The position numbers and the translations under genes are program-made. Source: Escherichia phage vB_EcoM_VR7. From it: a stretch of DNA of 64,000 nucleotides. Under the pieces are notes generated by a model that was not told the origin of the DNA, made no database searches, and saw only the letters and a list, made by a program, of their open reading frames with translations. Location: the sequence record NC_014792.1; one strand, written 5' to 3'. Below, piece after piece: positions 58,168 to 64,000 of this stretch; within the stretch, counting starts at the first letter, position 1, and the number at the start of each line of letters is the position of its first letter.

Positions 58168-60219
58168 CTATGAAAGGAATTTAGGAGGAATACTTTCCAA
58201 ATTAATACAACTAGCAAGAATACCAAGGCCTTGGTTGACTTTCTTCGTCACCCTGGAGGATGCAAACGATGCGAAGTCAACAGATTCTTCTGGTTCCTCG
58301 CCTTTATAAACGACAAGCTCGCCAGTTTCCATCAACACATCACCATCATAGATAACTGCATTTTCATCCAGTTGGTCAGTGGTCTGAATGTCAGGTTCCA
58401 GCATTTTGACGTTCGCATTTCCTTGATACGACGCATCCGTAATTTTTGTAATCTTAACTATAGTTCCACGAGGAAGAATAACTTCTTGCTCGGTCGGGTT
58501 TCCTGACAATTCACCAGGAACAATTACGTTAATTAAGTCCGCTCCAGAAATTTTCCAACCGACATGCATCATTACGTGGTCGCGGCGGGCATCCGGCATA
58601 TCTGGTAAAACAATTTCGTCATCAGCCTGGAAAGATGTCCCATCACGATAGTCCTGATGAACTGCGGCCATAGCAACGTTCGCCACCCAGCCACCAAAGA
58701 TAATCGGTTTAAACGACGTTGATACATAGTTCCTGAAATAAAATAATTTAGATTTCTTAATTTTATCAAATGTAGGAACGTTTAAATATTGACCACGCCA
58801 AAGAGTTGTATTAGGCGGCAACTTATGTCCAATTTCAAAGGCCGAATCCAATTCCTTAATTGTTTCGACAACTCTGTCTAGATTTAGGAATTCAGCTTCT
58901 TCTTCATAATATTTGCCCATCAAATAATTATTAATATCGGCATAGTTTGCTCCACAATAATCTGCAATTGCTTCTCGCTGGCCATAATGGAAACGGTTGT
59001 CAGTATACCCTGCTGTGAAATTAAGAGTATTTTCTGATGCTTCTTCGGCAAAGTCTTTAACTGCAACACGAATGGCGCTTGTGTATTCTTTTTCCCAGAG
59101 CGAGGCTGCATAAGTGGCTGCATCTAGGTTAGGAGGAGCATCATTCATTTTTCTTTCGATAAATGCGGCTTTGCGAAGGTTAAGAATCTCTGCGCATGAT
59201 TCGGCAAAAATCTGCATCTGCTTCATGCTACCAACTGGGGCACGTTTAAGTTCACGATGCATACGGTTAAAAATTGGGTCAGAGTCTTCAACACGAATTT
59301 CTTCTTTCCAAACACCATTTGCGCGCATAGCCGTATCCGCGGCGCGCATACGAGCCATAGTATTCGTTTCGGAAGGTCGAACAAAAATTTCCAGTTCTTC
59401 GGCATCATCAATTAATTCAGCAGTTGCAGGTCGACTAAACTTAGCAGCTTCTGCATCAATTTCGTCCCAACCTTCTGGCACGGAATCACTTGGTGCGTAC
59501 TGGGCTTGTGCAATAGCTCGGCGACTGATTTTAGTTTTCTGGGCAACAGCAGCGTCGGTCTTTTTGTTTGCTGCGTCAATCAGAACTTCGGCTGCGATTT
59601 CTTGTTTGGAGACTTGCGCACCGTTATCTTTATTAGTGAATACGTCGCCAACTTTTGTTGTGACTTTTTGATATTTCTCAGGGACAGGTGGCATACCATC
59701 AACCGACAGCAGGTCAACGCCCTTTTTGTACATAATTACATAAGCGTTCTTTTTACCGAGACCAGAAGCATTCGGAAGAACATGATAACGCCCGGAAGTT
59801 TTCATTTGAATCAGTCGATTCATAATACGAATAACAGCTTGCTCTTGACCTTTCATCTTTTTGGAAGGGAAACGGAACAAGACTACATCAGGTTTGCCTA
59901 GTTTGATACTTTCCCAGACTGTGGTAAAAATCAGGTTAATCGCATCAAGAGGTTTTTCACCTAGGCCACCCTTCAGAGGAACAGCATGGCCGTGTGAAGT
60001 CCCAGAGAGCAGGAATACCTCGGCAATTGCATCACCACGTTTATATTGTTTAACAGTTTCTTTGCCCGTGAATTGCATTAAACGGGCCATAAGAGAATTG
60101 GTCCCAGGAACACCGAATTGCCAAACCTGCGGGACCTTGTATTTTGGATTCATATTAATGACAGGATAACCGAAGGCTTCGATATATTTGTCAAAGAGTT
60201 CATTTAATTGTTCAGACAT
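58168..60219 (-). CDS. alt: Alt-like ADP-ribosyltransferase (head-packaged)
   Basis: 683 aa at the T4 alt position between 54 and DNA ligase. Confidence 0.8.
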   Translation of the reverse strand: MSEQLNELFDKYIEAFGYPVINMNPKYKVPQVWQFGVPGTNSLMARLMQFTGKETVKQYKRGDAIAEVFLLSGTSHGHAVPLKGGLGEKPLDAINLIFTTVWESIKLGKPDVVLFRFPSKKMKGQEQAVIRIMNRLIQMKTSGRYHVLPNASGLGKKNAYVIMYKKGVDLLSVDGMPPVPEKYQKVTTKVGDVFTNKDNGAQVSKQEIAAEVLIDAANKKTDAAVAQKTKISRRAIAQAQYAPSDSVPEGWDEIDAEAAKFSRPATAELIDDAEELEIFVRPSETNTMARMRAADTAMRANGVWKEEIRVEDSDPIFNRMHRELKRAPVGSMKQMQIFAESCAEILNLRKAAFIERKMNDAPPNLDAATYAASLWEKEYTSAIRVAVKDFAEEASENTLNFTAGYTDNRFHYGQREAIADYCGANYADINNYLMGKYYEEEAEFLNLDRVVETIKELDSAFEIGHKLPPNTTLWRGQYLNVPTFDKIKKSKLFYFRNYVSTSFKPIIFGGWVANVAMAAVHQDYRDGTSFQADDEIVLPDMPDARRDHVMMHVGWKISGADLINVIVPGELSGNPTEQEVILPRGTIVKITKITDASYQGNANVKMLEPDIQTTDQLDENAVIYDGDVLMETGELVVYKGEEPEESVDFASFASSRVTKKVNQGLGILASCINLESIPPKFLS

Positions 60220-60247
60220 AATAGGTTCCTTATAAAATATGATGTAT

Positions 60248-60270
60248 TTATACTAAAAAAGGGCCGAAGC
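60248..60270. terminator. Bidirectional terminator between DNA ligase and alt
   Basis: AAGGGC-cgaa-GCCCTT with T-runs. Confidence 0.65.
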
Positions 60271-60277
60271 CCTTTTG

Positions 60278-61810
60278 TTATTTTAACCCCGTCTGTGACC
60301 AGTCGCCAAATACTTCTTCGAAAGTATCTGCCTTATCTTTATCGAATCTGAACCCTTTGATAATCGGAAGGAACAGTTTAACAGTATTATCTTTACGAGT
60401 TTCAGAAGTCAACCAACCATTACATTCACAGTCAGCAATCATTCCAACCAATTCACCTTTACGAGCCTTAATCATAAGAGCTTCGCGGTCCATTTCATGA
60501 CGCTCATCAATTGGGATAATAGCCCATTTCTTAGTCTTCGGGTCTTTGACTTGTGTTGTATCTTTGAAGCCTGACCCACAATTGGTAACAATTTTACCGC
60601 AAGAAGATTGAAGCACAACACCACCAATTTTATTTGGGTCTTTCTCGTGCTCATAGAATCCGATAATTTCCAAAGCGATGTCAATAACTTCTTTGAACTT
60701 GTACATATTCTTAGAACGCTTGTTTTCCCAAGGAGCTGCAGTGTTTTTAAGAATAATACCTTCGAGCTTTAAAGCAATATATTTCTTATAGATGGCTTTG
60801 GCTTCTTCGAGGTTATTAACCACGTGGTTTTCAATCAGAATCATGCGGTCGTAGCCATGAAGCACCACGTTATCTGCAATCATCTTCTCTAATACCGCGA
60901 ACCGCACATCATATTTCAGAGGGTTAAGAATTTTAACATCTGAATACACTTCAATCAACGGAACATAATCCCAGACCTGGAATTTCATGCCAGCTGCTTC
61001 AACCGCAGTGATAGTTCCTTTTAATGATTTGTTCGCTAGACCGTTTGACTTAGTACGAGATTCCGCAGATTCAATTTGAGTCTCGGCTTGCTCTGTATCA
61101 TCAAAAAGGAAGGCCAACCCATCATCCTGGACAACTGTTTTCTGTTCATGGTATACTAACTCACCATCAATCAAAACGCCCTCAGGATGTCTCTCACGCG
61201 CTTCACGGGTGGCTTCAATCAATTCCTTTTTAAGAAGGTCAAGCTTAAGATACTCATTTCCAGCGCGGGATAACAATCGAACATCATCCAACTCATCGCC
61301 ACGAACTTCTGCAAAACACCGGGCGCCATCGGCTTTCAATTGTGCAAAGGCCGGGAACTTAATGTTTTTAGCAATACCTGCTTCATCGTAAGAAGAAGCA
61401 AGCATCTGTGGCTGTTCAGGAATTAAACCTTTCCAAACTTTATTCGCAATCGATACGGATGCCCCACATTCCAGGTCACGCATCATCACACGACGCAGGA
61501 CTTCAACATCATCTTTTTTACCATCAGCAATATAGCCAGATAATTCCTCGATTGCCGCATTACCTGTTAATTTACGAGGGGCTAATGTAAATTCGATAAA
61601 GTCAAGCATATCACTTATATTCAACATGCCAAAGCTTTGAGTCGTTGTCCCAGGTTTTGGCCATTTCTTGATATAGAACTGAATGCCTTTGGAATATGTC
61701 AAACGATACACACGTTTAAGCGTTTCATTTTCAGAATACGATTCCAGGATAGCTTGTTTCTCTTTCGTAGAATCGGTTGCAGCAATTTCATTTAAAATAT
61801 CTAAAATCAT
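60278..61810 (-). CDS. 30: ATP-dependent DNA ligase (gene 30)
   Basis: 510 aa; adenylation motif QLKADGARCF (KxDG); synteny. Confidence 0.92.
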   Translation of the reverse strand: MILDILNEIAATDSTKEKQAILESYSENETLKRVYRLTYSKGIQFYIKKWPKPGTTTQSFGMLNISDMLDFIEFTLAPRKLTGNAAIEELSGYIADGKKDDVEVLRRVMMRDLECGASVSIANKVWKGLIPEQPQMLASSYDEAGIAKNIKFPAFAQLKADGARCFAEVRGDELDDVRLLSRAGNEYLKLDLLKKELIEATREARERHPEGVLIDGELVYHEQKTVVQDDGLAFLFDDTEQAETQIESAESRTKSNGLANKSLKGTITAVEAAGMKFQVWDYVPLIEVYSDVKILNPLKYDVRFAVLEKMIADNVVLHGYDRMILIENHVVNNLEEAKAIYKKYIALKLEGIILKNTAAPWENKRSKNMYKFKEVIDIALEIIGFYEHEKDPNKIGGVVLQSSCGKIVTNCGSGFKDTTQVKDPKTKKWAIIPIDERHEMDREALMIKARKGELVGMIADCECNGWLTSETRKDNTVKLFLPIIKGFRFDKDKADTFEEVFGDWSQTGLK

Positions 61811-61820
61811 TAATCACCTC

Positions 61821-62099
61821 TTAGTCGTTGGCTCTATTATATGCCACGTCTTCCAAAAGCAAATCCAGACGCTTATGATAAGTGAACACAAATTTCGTGG
61901 CACCGTCTGGTTTCATTTTAGTCATGAAGTGAACATAAATGAATCCTTGCTCAACACATTCACGCCAAACGGGATTATCTTTAGCCGGATTAATATCAAA
62001 CGAGTAATCATGATTCACATGACGAATAAACTGGTTAACATGACCATAATCCATCGTGGTGGTTGGACCACGGTCAGAAATAGTATGAACGACAAACAT
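61821..62099 (-). CDS. Hypothetical protein (92 aa)
   Basis: ORF track 61821..62141 trimmed to the ATG at 62099, 2 nt after the upstream stop. Confidence 0.4.
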   Translation of the reverse strand: MFVVHTISDRGPTTTMDYGHVNQFIRHVNHDYSFDINPAKDNPVWRECVEQGFIYVHFMTKMKPDGATKFVFTYHKRLDLLLEDVAYNRAND

Positions 62100-62100
62100 A

Positions 62101-62913
62101 TTAACCCCTTCCACAGGTCGGTTGATTATACCAGTATTCAATACCAGTACCTACGCCATATTGGTATGGATATGCTGGATTATATCCAGGAGTCCATGGC
62201 TGACCTGGCTGCCAGCCTTGTTGCATTTGTTGCTGAAGACGTCGAGTTTCACGAAACAGTTCTTCCAGTTTACGGAGTTCATCTGGTGTGAATTCTGGTT
62301 TGGTCGGTTCATCTTTGTGTTTCAGTTTAAGCTGTCCAGCAACATCGTCCCAATTAAAAACTTTGGAAGCTGTTTTAGGAATAGCATCACGTTCACCACG
62401 AGCCATCCAATAAACCGGAACTGCAAGGATTTCACTCGCATGGTCGCAATGGTGAGCAAGGTCATCAATATAACAAATGACATTATATTTGTCTTTTGCC
62501 TTCTGGAACAACTCCTCTTTAGAGGCTGTATGACCACACATCATAACTTCTTTAAACGCACCAGGGAACAAAGCATTCAGGTTGAATTGACGATTCAGGC
62601 GGGCGTCAATGGAATCACCCAGGGCTGTAACGGCCACAAAATCATATTGTTCTTTGAGGTTATTAATAACCCTTAACGCATCTGCATAAGGAGACAAATA
62701 ACGAATAAAATCCGAACAGTTATATTTCTCAATCAACTGTGCGCCCAACTCTTCATCACAATTGAACAGTTTGCCCGGGGTCACAAATTTTTCATCCTGA
62801 ATCATCTTAAGGATATGTTCCAGGGGTAAATTGTATTTTTGAGCGAAATAAGGCAAGCCAGATTGCCATGACAAACATACGCCATCAATGTCTGTTAAAA
62901 TAACGGGTTTCAT
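62101..62913 (-). CDS. HAD-superfamily hydrolase-like protein with Q/P-rich C-terminal tail
   Basis: N-terminal MKPVILTDIDGV (DxDG HAD motif I); 270 aa. Confidence 0.55.
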   Translation of the reverse strand: MKPVILTDIDGVCLSWQSGLPYFAQKYNLPLEHILKMIQDEKFVTPGKLFNCDEELGAQLIEKYNCSDFIRYLSPYADALRVINNLKEQYDFVAVTALGDSIDARLNRQFNLNALFPGAFKEVMMCGHTASKEELFQKAKDKYNVICYIDDLAHHCDHASEILAVPVYWMARGERDAIPKTASKVFNWDDVAGQLKLKHKDEPTKPEFTPDELRKLEELFRETRRLQQQMQQGWQPGQPWTPGYNPAYPYQYGVGTGIEYWYNQPTCGRG

Positions 62914-63377
62914 AATGCATCTCTCAATTGGTTAAGTATGTCAATAAATTCTTGTTCAGTCAATATTGTATCATGAACAGTAAGGTGGCTCGCCATCGAA
63001 TGCTTTAAAACTTTGCCCTTTGTAGCTTGTAATGCGTCGCGGAATCCTTTGTTTTGGAGAGCTGCTTCAAAATATGCACTTGTATACAACTCTTTCCATG
63101 CTGCAGAGTATCTTGAAAAGGGAATTCCAAGCCAGAAAAGCGTCCCACGGTCCGCAGCTCTTGCATAAGCTCTTCCAGTTTGTTGTGCGACCAGCCCGGA
63201 CATCCCAAATATACGTTTTTGTTGTTCATAATTTCTCACCTTGCACCCTTGTAGGAAGCCTTCAAGACCTCCAAACTGGATACCATCCATAACAAAAGGC
63301 CATTTGGCAAAGTTACTTAATGCGCATGATGGCCACGGGAAATTGCTTCTGATTTCTAACTCAGACATCTTTGACAC
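62910..63377 (-). CDS. NADAR (YbiA-like, DUF1768) domain protein
   Basis: 155 aa; LSNFAKWPFVMDGIQFGGLEGFLQ resembles the YbiA/NADAR core (SNFA.WP...DG.....EH.FQ). Confidence 0.55.
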   Translation of the reverse strand: MSKMSELEIRSNFPWPSCALSNFAKWPFVMDGIQFGGLEGFLQGCKVRNYEQQKRIFGMSGLVAQQTGRAYARAADRGTLFWLGIPFSRYSAAWKELYTSAYFEAALQNKGFRDALQATKGKVLKHSMASHLTVHDTILTEQEFIDILNQLRDAL

Positions 63378-63573
63378 TTATAATTTCGACATCAGCCCAA
63401 TGGCCATAACCCGGTAGACGGTCCGCAATGGATAATCCGCCGTCAGTTTTGAGCATTTTAATTGTCTTAGTATATGGTTCAATATTTCGGGCCCATGGAC
63501 TTACGTCAGTCACGCGATAAGTCACTTCAACCATTTCTGTGCCCAAAATTTTCTGAATCAATTTCTTAAACAT
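63361..63573 (-). CDS. Hypothetical small protein (70 aa)
   Basis: ORF track; overlaps neighbouring genes by a few nt. Confidence 0.4.
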   Translation of the reverse strand: MFKKLIQKILGTEMVEVTYRVTDVSPWARNIEPYTKTIKMLKTDGGLSIADRLPGYGHWADVEIISVKDV

Positions 63574-63574
63574 A

Positions 63575-63769
63575 TTATCCTCGCTTTAAACATTTGATTA
63601 CAGACAATTCTTGCCCCATGCGGACGTCTTCAGTTCCATCAACCCACAGGACTGCATAGGCTTCTTTAATGGAAATATTACTCAATTTGAAAGCAGGCAG
63701 GACCTTGGAAATCATTCCAGGAATACCCACACCTTTTAACTGAACAGTTTGTGATAAGAATAGTTGCAT
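63575..63769 (-). CDS. Hypothetical small protein (64 aa)
   Basis: ORF track; start overlaps the upstream stop (TAATG). Confidence 0.4.
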   Translation of the reverse strand: MQLFLSQTVQLKGVGIPGMISKVLPAFKLSNISIKEAYAVLWVDGTEDVRMGQELSVIKCLKRG

Positions 63770-64000
63770 TAGAACCTCATCTGGAAACCATGTGATTTGA
63801 CATTCTTGCCATTAATATCAGATGAATTAATTTCACGTGCCGCGATTGGGTCAATATCAATGTCACGACTAAGCTTGGTGATTGCCAGAGTATCGCGCCC
63901 ATTAACAGTCCTGAATTCAACTGGGCAAACTATATCCACATAGTTTTTAATGGATTCTTTAGTTGGTTGCTTATCAGCAGGTACACCTGGACCAGCTTTG
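63770..64000 (-). CDS. Hypothetical protein, partial (N-terminus beyond window edge)
   Basis: Open minus-strand frame to the window edge ending ...NGKNVKSHGFQMRF. Confidence 0.35.

What the first reader, a model, noticed from the sequence alone, without database searches (positions are those of the whole stretch)
62101..63377. HAD-like hydrolase and NADAR (YbiA-like) domain protein adjacent to DNA ligase and the Alt ADP-ribosyltransferase
Seen in sequence: 62910-63377 encodes a 155-aa protein with LSNFAKWPFVMDGIQFGGLEGFLQ resembling the NADAR/YbiA core; 62101-62913 encodes a protein starting MKPVILTDIDGV (HAD motif I) with a Q/P-rich tail. Established knowledge: NADAR domains are linked to NAD/ADP-ribose metabolism and have been reported to reverse DNA ADP-ribosylation. 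Inference: a possible counter-defence function against DNA-ADP-ribosylating systems, or nucleotide salvage.
Basis: partly seen in the sequence, partly recalled or inferred. Interest (0 to 1): 0.5.

Follow-up and report, generated by a model that had tools for sequence, protein, structure and literature searches.

The report
Known anti-DarT NADAR plus uncharacterised phosphatase
These are the T4-like phage genes 30.3 and 30.2: the first is an ortholog of AdfN, an enzyme already shown to strip ADP-ribose from phage DNA and so defeat the bacterial DarTG1 defence, and the second is a conserved phosphatase-like protein whose substrate is still unknown.

The parts
62910..63368 (-). Gene 30.3 / adfN ortholog. 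152 aa, NADAR-superfamily DNA ADP-ribosylglycohydrolase. The maximal ORF from a GTG at 63377 is probably not the start used.
63261..63263 (-). Codon for E36, a catalytic Glu. The E36A mutant of T4 AdfN is inactive in vitro.
   Evidence: Invariant. Coordinate verified. Mutant data from PMC11825919.
63240..63242 (-). Codon for K43, an ADP-ribose-contacting Lys.
   Evidence: Invariant. Coordinate verified. K43A data from PMC11825919.
63000..63002 (-). Codon for H123, the His that replaces the last-strand Glu/Asp in phage-type NADARs.
   Evidence: Invariant. The phage-specific His is described in PMC11125620 and PMC11543638.
62913..62957 (-). Last 15 codons of 30.3 (within the predicted C-terminal helix, residues 138-151) — the 15 residues missing from the DarTG1-sensitive RB69 allele; intact here.
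   Evidence: Helix 138-151 in the model. RB69 30.3 is 414 nt = 137 aa. The truncation reduces activity (PMC11825919).
62910..62913 (-). ATGA overlap of the 30.3 stop and the 30.2 start (translational coupling).
   Evidence: The same 4-nt overlap occurs in T4 and in most sampled Tevenvirinae loci with both genes (gap -4).
62101..62913 (-). Gene 30.2 ortholog. 270 aa: a HAD-fold phosphatase-like core plus a disordered C-terminal tail.
62878..62892 (-). HAD motif I, DIDGV. D8 is the nucleophile and D10 the acid/base. Invariant W16 follows at 62866-62868.
   Evidence: D8, D10, G11 and W16 are invariant in 47 sequences. They align to DMDGV...F of mouse deoxyribonucleotidase 2jao.
62626..62628 (-). 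HAD motif II, Thr96.
   Evidence: At least 90% conserved. Coordinate verified.
62518..62520 (-). HAD motif III, Lys132.
   Evidence: Invariant. Coordinate verified.
62461..62466 (-). HAD motif IV, Asp150-Asp151 (Mg2+ ligands).
   Evidence: Invariant. Coordinate verified.
62104..62328 (-). C-terminal tail of gp30.2 (aa 196-270). One confident helix (210-233) is followed by a disordered Pro/Gln/Trp/Tyr-rich stretch ending in the conserved motif GTGIEYWYNQPT.
   Evidence: pLDDT falls to 49-66 after residue 235. A tail is present in 58 of 115 homologs and the GIEY[LW]-type motif in 15 of those 58. Alignment.
63361..63573 (-). Gene 30.4 ortholog, immediately upstream. Its stop overlaps the 30.3 ATG by 8 nt.
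   Evidence: PHROG 2042 E=1.8e-34. Synteny. Overlap shown.
61821..62099 (-). Gene 30.1 ortholog (DUF3045), lying between 30.2 and the ligase.
   Evidence: PF11243 E=5e-18. VR25 annotation.
60278..61810 (-). Gene 30, ATP-dependent DNA ligase (context).
   Evidence: PF01068 E=9.3e-28. PHROG 114.
58168..60219 (-). alt, the Alt ADP-ribosyltransferase (context).
   Evidence: PF03496 E=2.7e-19. PHROG 802 E=2.3e-225.

Best explanation
The region holds two tightly packed genes of a T4-like phage (genus Gaprivervirus); in T4-like phages this cluster is reported as early-expressed (not tested here).

Gene 30.3 is an intact ortholog of AdfN. It is a NADAR-fold N-glycohydrolase that cuts ADP-ribose off guanine bases that the host DarT1 toxin has placed on phage DNA. 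That restores replication in DarTG1-carrying hosts. The function is shown for T4 and inferred here by orthology, conserved catalytic residues and fold.

Gene 30.2, translationally coupled to 30.3 by an ATGA overlap, is a catalytically competent-looking HAD-superfamily enzyme. It is most likely a Mg2+-dependent phosphomonoesterase with an alpha-helical C1 cap, which would act on a small nucleotide-like substrate in the manner of the NT5C 5'(3')-deoxyribonucleotidases. It carries a fast-evolving disordered tail with a short conserved C-terminal motif that probably docks it to a partner.

The activity and substrate of gp30.2 are inferred. It is not required for AdfN's anti-DarTG1 function in T4.
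For: AdfN ortholog:
- PF08010 E=4e-64.
- 85% identity and the same gene order as T4 30.4-30.3-30.2-30.1-30-alt.
- E36, K43 and H123 are invariant.
- The protein is full length at 152 aa, against 137 aa in DarTG1-sensitive RB69.

Published function:
- PMC11825919 shows in vitro de-ADP-ribosylation of DarT1-modified DNA, the E36A and K43A mutants, and that AdfN (30.3) accounts for T4's resistance to DarTG1: a delta-adfN derivative of the unmodified-DNA strain T4-GT7 becomes sensitive.
- PMC11125620 shows guanine-ADPr hydrolysis by the phage NADAR.
- In HIDEN-SEQ, T4 30.3 insertions fall by log2FC -7.25 under DarTG1.

gp30.2 as a HAD enzyme:
- D8, D10, K132, D150 and D151 are invariant and T96 is at least 90% conserved across 47 sequences.
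- AF2 pLDDT is 87.9, with the core above 90.
- In Foldseek, the deoxyribonucleotidases 2jao, 3bwv, 2i7d and 1q92 have the highest target-normalised TM-scores (0.62-0.70) and the lowest rmsd among the listed hits.
- Sequence-level hints point to NT5C.

The family is large: 1251 representatives at E<=1e-3.
Against: No activity was measured for this phage's proteins.

gp30.2 reaches no Pfam or NCBIfam threshold. The HAD fold also supports dehalogenases, epoxide hydrolases and mutases, so 'phosphatase' and 'nucleotide substrate' are inferences.

T4 30.2 has no detected phenotype in the two HIDEN-SEQ comparisons where its row was read. It is non-essential on K-12, and log2FC is -0.12 under DarTG1 and +0.02 in the RnlAB comparison.

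AdfN from T4 does not rescue uninfected cells or non-T-even phages (PMC11825919), so its in vivo requirements are not fully understood.
Confidence: 0.85

Rival explanations
1. gp30.2 and AdfN form a two-step module. AdfN releases ADP-ribose from DNA, and the HAD enzyme then dephosphorylates ADP-ribose-derived products such as AMP or ribose-5-phosphate after Nudix cleavage, or ADP-ribosylated nucleotides. Alternatively, gp30.2 is the 'additional T-even protein' that AdfN seems to need.
For: - The ATGA translational coupling is conserved in Tevenvirinae.
- The NADAR lies within 1.3 kb upstream of the HAD, in the same orientation, in 18 of 29 T4-like genomes.
- In KVP40-like Vibrio phage ValKK3, the NADAR overlaps a bona fide NT5C gene (PF06941 E=1.5e-12) in a different neighbourhood.
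- Single-chain NADAR+HAD proteins exist in Tenacibaculum phage pT24 and two relatives at 50-55% identity, with DxDxT, T, K and DD invariant.
- In locus L077 a gp30.2-like HAD lies about 0.7 kb upstream of the NADAR.
- PMC11825919 proposes an unidentified T-even cofactor.
- PMC9503650 describes host ARG glycohydrolases coupled to HAD 5'-nucleotidases, presumed to process released ADP-ribose.
Against: - In the T4 transposon screen under DarTG1, 30.2 is not depleted (log2FC -0.12, p=0.61, 71 sites) while 30.3 is lost (log2FC -7.25).
- The two genes are 54-69 kb apart in 11 of 29 T4-like genomes.
- About 60 other NADAR loci have no HAD within 3 kb, by HMM or by motif search.
- The fusion is confined to three protein clusters among 599 hits.
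Confidence: 0.2
2. gp30.2 is a stand-alone nucleotide-pool enzyme, a 5'(3')-(deoxy)nucleotidase that removes unwanted or non-canonical nucleotides during infection. It would be functionally unrelated to AdfN, and the adjacency would simply be inherited T4 synteny.
For: - The closest characterised structures are cytosolic and mitochondrial deoxyribonucleotidases.
- Motif I plus W16 aligns with DMDGV...F of 2jao.
- 6 of 47 family members weakly hit PF06941.
- gp30.2 stays beside the ligase even where the NADAR sits elsewhere.
- It is dispensable in rich medium, as accessory metabolic genes usually are.
Against: - No Pfam NT5C hit for the window protein.
- The profile-profile match to the ValKK3 NT5C covers only motif I (23 columns, probability 80%).
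- This reading explains neither the conserved docking-like tail nor the recurrent NADAR linkage.
Confidence: 0.4
3. gp30.2 is a polynucleotide end-healing phosphatase, like the HAD domain of T4 polynucleotide kinase. It would work on DNA or RNA ends with the neighbouring ligase, possibly tethered to the sliding clamp by its tail.
For: - The gene sits two genes from DNA ligase.
- The tail motif GIEY[L/W]Y resembles, residue class by residue class, the clamp-binding C-termini SLDFLF of T4 gp43 and SLDFLY of gp55.
Against: - The Pnkp similarity is no better than to dozens of generic HADs.
- The model has a four-helix C1 cap (helices at 16-65). By established knowledge of HAD enzymes (Burroughs et al. 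2006), such a cap typifies small-molecule rather than macromolecular substrates.
- T4-like phages already encode PseT.
- Half of the homologs lack a tail, and the fifth motif position is often not aromatic.
Confidence: 0.1

Closest known systems
T4 gp30.3 = AdfN (anti-DarT factor NADAR; Johannesman et al. 2025, PMC11825919)
   Same: 85% identical, same length, same catalytic E36, K43 and H123, same C-terminal helix, and the same position between 30.4 and 30.2. It is the same Pfam family, PF08010.
   Different: It comes from a different genus (Gaprivervirus rather than Tequatrovirus) and differs at about 15% of residues. Activity and DarTG1 resistance have not been tested for this allele.
DarG1 / DarT1-associated NADAR antitoxins (G. 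lovleyi 8bat, E. coli C7; PMC11543638)
   Different: The window gene is an orphan with no adjacent DarT. It has His instead of Asp in the last strand. T4 AdfN cannot replace DarG1 in uninfected cells.
E. coli YbiA (2b3w) and Phytophthora NADAR (8bau)
   Different: Only 20-23% identical. YbiA-type enzymes carry Glu in the last strand and have been linked to riboflavin-intermediate N-glycosidase activity.
T4 gp30.2 (NP_049815, hypothetical protein)
   Same: 68% identical overall and about 86% over the core. Same ATGA coupling to 30.3 and the same tail ending GIEY.YN.PTCG.
   Different: The middle of the tail is not alignable. No function is published: 'gp30.2' occurs in no paper in the library.
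NT5C family 5'(3')-deoxyribonucleotidases (cdN/mdN: 2jao, 2i7d, 1q92; S. epidermidis 3bwv)
   Same: HAD core plus a helical C1 cap. Motif I is DxDGV with an aromatic residue eight positions after the nucleophile. They have the best target-normalised TM-scores, 0.62-0.70.
   Different: Sequence identity is only 15-20%. Pfam PF06941 is not reached. gp30.2 has an extra 75-residue tail.
Host ARG glycohydrolase + HAD 5'-nucleotidase gene pairs (Iyer et al. 2022, PMC9503650 section 3.8)
   Same: An ADP-ribose-releasing glycohydrolase genetically coupled to a HAD phosphatase.
   Different: The glycohydrolase fold differs (ARG, not NADAR), and those are cellular rather than phage systems. The coupling here is lineage-restricted.

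Membership tests
Phage gp30.3 / AdfN family (Pfam PF08010, NADAR superfamily) | Significant match to the family profile | tested here: met
   PF08010 E=4e-64, 215 bits against a cut-off of 36, covering residues 15-153 of the 155-aa ORF.
Phage gp30.3 / AdfN family (Pfam PF08010, NADAR superfamily) | NADAR alpha+beta fold | tested here: met
Phage gp30.3 / AdfN family (Pfam PF08010, NADAR superfamily) | Catalytic Glu and Lys (E36, K43 in T4) and the phage-type His in the last strand | tested here: met
   E36, K43 and H123 are invariant in alignments of 10 and of 29 family members that include the window protein. In the 11-sequence alignment, E36 and H123 are invariant and K43 is at least 90% conserved. 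Their roles come from PMC11825919, PMC11125620 and PMC11543638.
Phage gp30.3 / AdfN family (Pfam PF08010, NADAR superfamily) | Intact C-terminal helix (lost in the inactive RB69 allele) | tested here: met
   152 aa, ending ...EFIDILNQLRDAL, with a predicted helix at 138-151. RB69 has 137 aa.
Phage gp30.3 / AdfN family (Pfam PF08010, NADAR superfamily) | Orthology to T4 adfN by synteny | tested here: met
   Gene order 30.4-30.3-30.2-30.1-30-alt is identical to T4 and VR25.
Phage gp30.3 / AdfN family (Pfam PF08010, NADAR superfamily) | Hydrolysis of guanine-ADP-ribose in DNA and protection from DarTG1 | not testable with these tools
   Shown for the T4 protein only.
Canonical NADAR domain (Pfam PF08719) | Match to PF08719 above the gathering score | tested here: not met
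   No hit for the window protein at E<=0.1. Relatives from ValKK3 and Acj9 give E=0.003-0.004 at 18 bits against a cut-off of 35. PF08010 is the sister model that covers phage NADARs.
HAD (haloacid dehalogenase-like) superfamily | Four catalytic motifs: DxD, S/T, K/R and DD | tested here: met
   D8, D10, K132, D150 and D151 are invariant and T96 is at least 90% conserved in 47 sequences. The same holds in 34 sequences that include T4.
HAD (haloacid dehalogenase-like) superfamily | Rossmannoid core fold with a cap | tested here: met
HAD (haloacid dehalogenase-like) superfamily | Match to a curated HAD sequence model above threshold | tested here: not met
   No Pfam hit for the window protein at E<=0.1. 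Only sub-threshold hits among relatives: PF00702 in 9 of 47, best E=3.5e-4. No NCBIfam hit.
HAD (haloacid dehalogenase-like) superfamily | Mg2+-dependent phosphoryl transfer through an aspartyl-phosphate intermediate | not testable with these tools
   Inferred from the invariant motifs only.
NT5C 5'(3')-deoxyribonucleotidases (Pfam PF06941) | Match to PF06941 above the gathering score | tested here: not met
   None for the window protein. 6 of 47 relatives hit weakly, best E=0.002. PDB sequence searches give 2jao at E=0.31 for the single sequence and E=0.14 for the profile.
NT5C 5'(3')-deoxyribonucleotidases (Pfam PF06941) | Structural similarity closer than to other HAD families | tested here: inconclusive
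Obligate AdfN partner (two-gene anti-DarTG1 module) | Loss of 30.2 sensitises the phage to DarTG1 | tested here: not met
   Published T4 HIDEN-SEQ table: 30.2 log2FC -0.12, p=0.61; 30.3 log2FC -7.25, adjusted p=0. This is literature data, not my own experiment.
Obligate AdfN partner (two-gene anti-DarTG1 module) | Conserved adjacency wherever both genes occur | tested here: not met
   Adjacent within 1.3 kb in 18 of 29 genomes, and 54-69 kb apart in 11 of 29.

The most novel reading that the evidence does not exclude
The HAD protein gp30.2 is a conditionally important companion of the NADAR enzyme. NADAR+HAD would be a two-step ADP-ribose removal and disposal module that phages have assembled at least three separate ways: coupled genes in T-even phages, a NADAR+NT5C pair in KVP40-like phages, and a fused polypeptide in pT24-like phages. 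The variable C-terminal tail of gp30.2, whose motif resembles the gp45 clamp-binding peptides of gp43 and gp55, would bring the module to replicating DNA. Its dispensability in the published DarTG1 screen would then reflect redundancy or the particular DarT and growth conditions used.
Probability: 0.15. Interest if true: 0.55.

Novelty: already known. Interest (0 to 1): 0.22.

Why it matters
The NADAR gene is a textbook-ready example of a phage carrying an 'orphan antitoxin' to undo a host DNA-modifying toxin. Finding an intact allele predicts that this VR25-like phage resists DarTG1, which is useful for judging the host range of therapeutic T4-like phages. It adds no new biology.

The only open question here is gp30.2. 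It is a widespread HAD-type enzyme, found in about 1,450 phage records and 1,251 representative clusters, with no assigned family, substrate or phenotype. It is linked to NADAR genes in three different architectures. Defining its substrate would annotate a quasi-core gene of T4-like phages and could show what happens to ADP-ribose after it is removed from DNA.

Tried and rejected
1. Single-sequence and profile searches of PDB sequences for gp30.2 gave only marginal hits (E=0.14-0.31 to deoxyribonucleotidase). Fold comparison was needed instead.

2. I tested whether gp30.2 is the missing T-even cofactor of AdfN. I rejected it as an obligate partner because of the published T4 transposon table under DarTG1 and the non-adjacency in 11 of 29 genomes.

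3. I looked for HAD genes next to NADARs across 80 IMG/VR loci. I used a gp30.2 HMM, jackhmmer seeded with the ValKK3 NT5C and the pT24 HAD half, and a motif regex. Nothing turned up beyond the T4-like lineages, ValKK3 and pT24.

4. Profile-profile comparison of the gp30.2 family with the ValKK3 NT5C and with the pT24 HAD half aligned only motif I or motif IV. This shows common superfamily membership, not close kinship.

5. The genomic contexts of three distant gp30.2-family members were uninformative. They sit in large phage-like contigs full of unannotated genes.

6. Multi-domain family members (P0309, P0362, P0258 and others) showed no recognisable extra Pfam domain.

7. The promoter and terminator scan of 60000-64000 was not informative. 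Terminator-like sites were at chance level (3 found against 3.0 expected). Promoter-like sites were modestly above shuffles (18 found against 10.6 +/- 3.2) but all weak.

8. NCBIfam has no model for either protein.

9. I tried to read the 30.2 row of the LB-versus-M9 HIDEN-SEQ table but picked the wrong part of the file and did not pursue it.
Full report
**What is there**

The window's last 6 kb is a minus-strand run of small, tightly packed genes. DNA from 61800-63600 is 98.6% identical to Escherichia phage vB_EcoM_VR25 (Straboviridae, Tevenvirinae, Gaprivervirus). Related sequence occurs in 212 phage records.

Gene order is alt (58168-60219), DNA ligase gene 30 (60278-61810), 30.1 (61821-62099, DUF3045), 30.2 (62101-62913), 30.3 (62910-63368) and 30.4 (63361-63573). 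This matches T4 and VR25. T4 and VR25 annotate the ATG three codons downstream (152 aa), which overlaps the 30.4 stop by 8 nt. The 30.3 stop and 30.2 start overlap as ATGA.

**Gene 30.3 is an AdfN ortholog**

- It matches Pfam PF08010 (Phage_30_3) at E=4e-64 and is 85% identical to T4 gp30.3.
- An AlphaFold2 model built on 29 family sequences is very confident (pLDDT 95.1, pTM 0.89).

The literature settles the function. Johannesman et al. (Nat Commun 2025, PMC11825919) mapped DarTG1 resistance of T-even phages to gene 30.3 and renamed it adfN. They showed that purified AdfN(T4), but not E36A, removes ADP-ribose from DarT1-modified DNA. E36A and K43A variants give only partial rescue of RB69. 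RB69 is DarTG1-sensitive because a frameshift removes the last 15 residues, which form a terminal helix.

Schuller and colleagues showed guanine-specific de-ADP-ribosylation by the phage NADAR. They also noted that phage NADARs carry His where YbiA-type enzymes have Glu and DarG1-type enzymes have Asp (PMC11125620, PMC11543638). A T4 transposon screen (HIDEN-SEQ, bioRxiv 10.1101/2025.11.20.689424) lost all 30.3 insertions on a DarTG1 host.

The window protein has E36, K43 and H123. It is full length with a predicted helix at 138-151, whereas RB69 30.3 is 137 aa. I conclude it is a functional adfN allele. This is known biology.

**Gene 30.2 is a HAD-fold enzyme of unknown substrate**

No Pfam or NCBIfam model reaches threshold, and the term 'gp30.2' occurs in no paper in the library.

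In an alignment of 47 homologs down to 37% identity, the four HAD motifs are invariant or nearly so:
- D8-x-D10-G11 (motif I)
- T96 (motif II)
- K132 (motif III)
- D150-D151 (motif IV)

Invariant W16, R108, N111 and R172 accompany them.

In Foldseek, the cytosolic and mitochondrial 5'(3')-deoxyribonucleotidases and 3bwv have the highest target-normalised TM-scores (0.62-0.70) and the lowest rmsd. The only PDB sequence hint also points there: 2jao, with DIDGVCLSWQSGL aligned to NMDGVLADFESGL. Six of 47 relatives weakly hit Pfam NT5C and nine hit PF00702.

An NT5C-like nucleotidase is the most specific defensible guess, but membership of NT5C is not established.

The family is large. It has 1,451 phage records by tblastn and 1,251 representatives at E<=1e-3 in the 1.84-billion-protein library.

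**The tail**

Residues 196-270 form one confident helix (210-233) followed by a low-confidence Pro/Gln/Trp/Tyr-rich stretch. About half of the homologs (58 of 115) have such a tail.

Its sequence is not conserved except for short terminal motifs that differ by clade. These include GTGIEY[LW]xxQPT (15 of 58, including the window and T4), LRAYY and DYVLLNKVxANDS. This looks like a docking motif.

The T4 version, GIEYLY, matches the gp45 clamp-binding C-termini of T4 gp43 (SLDFLFG) and gp55 (SLDFLYEAND) residue class by residue class. That is a lead and has not been tested.

**Is gp30.2 functionally tied to AdfN?**

Evidence for:
- The ATGA coupling is shared by most sampled Tevenvirinae loci with both genes.
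- NADAR and HAD lie in the same orientation within 1.3 kb in 18 of 29 T4-like genomes where I could place both.
- In KVP40-like Vibrio phage ValKK3, the NADAR overlaps a true NT5C gene (PF06941 E=1.5e-12) beside gp46/47 rather than the ligase.
- Tenacibaculum phage pT24 and two relatives encode a single roughly 290-aa protein. It has an N-terminal PF08010 domain (E=5.8e-45) and a C-terminal half carrying invariant DxDxT, T, K and DD motifs.
- PMC11825919 reports that AdfN(T4) works fully only in T-even infections and suggests a missing T-even protein.
- PMC9503650 describes host ARG glycohydrolases coupled to HAD 5'-nucleotidases.

Evidence against:
- In the T4 HIDEN-SEQ DarTG1 table, 30.2 is unaffected (log2FC -0.12, p=0.61, 71 TA sites) while 30.3 is at -7.25. 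30.2 is also non-essential on K-12.
- In 11 of 29 genomes the NADAR lies 54-69 kb from 30.2, which stays beside the ligase.
- About 60 further NADAR loci from IMG/VR have no HAD within 3 kb by HMM, jackhmmer or motif search.
- Only 3 of 599 NADAR hits are HAD fusions.

I therefore rate an obligate partnership as refuted and a conditional or auxiliary link at about 0.15-0.2.

**Mechanism, with its status**

1. Shown in T4 and inferred here: DarT1 ADP-ribosylates guanines in phage DNA. AdfN hydrolyses the ribosyl-guanine N-glycosidic bond using E36, K43 and H123. This releases ADP-ribose and restores replication.
2. Inferred: gp30.2 is a Mg2+-dependent aspartyl-phosphate phosphatase. Its C1 cap encloses a small nucleotide-like substrate, with W16 in the position of the base-contacting Phe of deoxyribonucleotidases (that role is recalled from memory of the mdN structures). 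Its tail docks it to an unknown partner.
3. Speculative: the substrate derives from ADP-ribose.

**Novelty and score**

The headline of the finding, a NADAR as counter-defence against DNA ADP-ribosylation, was published in 2024-2025 for the T4 ortholog. The window copy is an ordinary intact allele. The HAD neighbour is a genuine unknown with modest contextual hints but a negative published phenotype. Novelty is 'already known' and interest is low (0.22).

Noticed in passing
window 63005-63229 (-): An internal out-of-frame ORF of 74 aa lies within 30.3. It corresponds to T4/VR25 '30.3''. It stays open (53-75 aa) in relatives that are at least 84% identical, but its sequence drifts freely. It is absent from NADAR genes below 60% identity, where the median longest alternative-frame ORF is 25 aa. 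It is probably not an independent gene.
   Followed up: partly
window 62128-62145 (-), gp30.2 residues 257-262: The tail motif GIEYWY (GIEYLY in T4) resembles the sliding-clamp-binding C-termini of T4 gp43 (SLDFLFG) and gp55 (SLDFLYEAND) at every position by residue class. Other gp30.2 clades end in LRAYY or DYVLLN motifs instead.
   Followed up: partly
L005:3001-3879 (Tenacibaculum phage pT24 BPT24_061); proteins P0137-P0139: A single polypeptide fuses a PF08010 NADAR domain to a capless HAD-like domain with invariant DxDxT, T, K and DD motifs. It is found in three protein clusters at 50-55% identity.
   Followed up: partly
L004:3007-3961 (Vibrio phage ValKK3 ORF191/ORF190): A NADAR gene overlaps, by 23 nt, a downstream bona fide NT5C 5'(3')-deoxyribonucleotidase gene. 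The pair sits next to the gp47/gp46 exonuclease genes rather than the ligase.
   Followed up: partly
proteins P0242, P0251: These are dihydrofolate reductase (PF00186) fused to a PF08010 NADAR domain, which links some phage NADARs to nucleotide or folate metabolism. P0239, P0241 and P0244 carry other, unrecognised N-terminal extensions, some rich in Cys.
   Followed up: no
window 63361-63573 (-), gene 30.4 ortholog: In the published T4 DarTG1 transposon table, 30.4 is also significantly depleted (log2FC -1.79, adjusted p=0.014). 30.5 is at -3.0 but not significant. This is most simply a polar effect on the translationally coupled 30.3, but a role for 30.4 in AdfN function is not excluded.
   Followed up: no
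L087:536-3073 (Vibrio phage PC-Liy1): A second, gp30.2-like HAD of 190 aa in a KVP40-like phage lies two genes from nicotinamide phosphoribosyltransferase, on the opposite strand. That places it in an NAD-salvage neighbourhood.
   Followed up: no
L072:3001-3890: The ORF immediately downstream of the PF08010 NADAR begins MIVEFQNEFRWLSNFWHFES..., which looks like a second, YbiA-type NADAR. This would be a tandem pair of NADAR genes.
   Followed up: no
11 T4-like genomes, e.g. Serratia phage CHI14 and Enterobacter phage PG7: The NADAR gene sits about 54-69 kb away from 30.2 and the ligase, in a different early region. The gene has therefore moved within the T4-like backbone.
   Followed up: partly
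window 62852-62867 (-): A terminator-like hairpin followed by a T-run lies inside the 5' end of 30.2. Such sites occur at chance frequency in this region (3 found, 3.0 expected).
   Followed up: no
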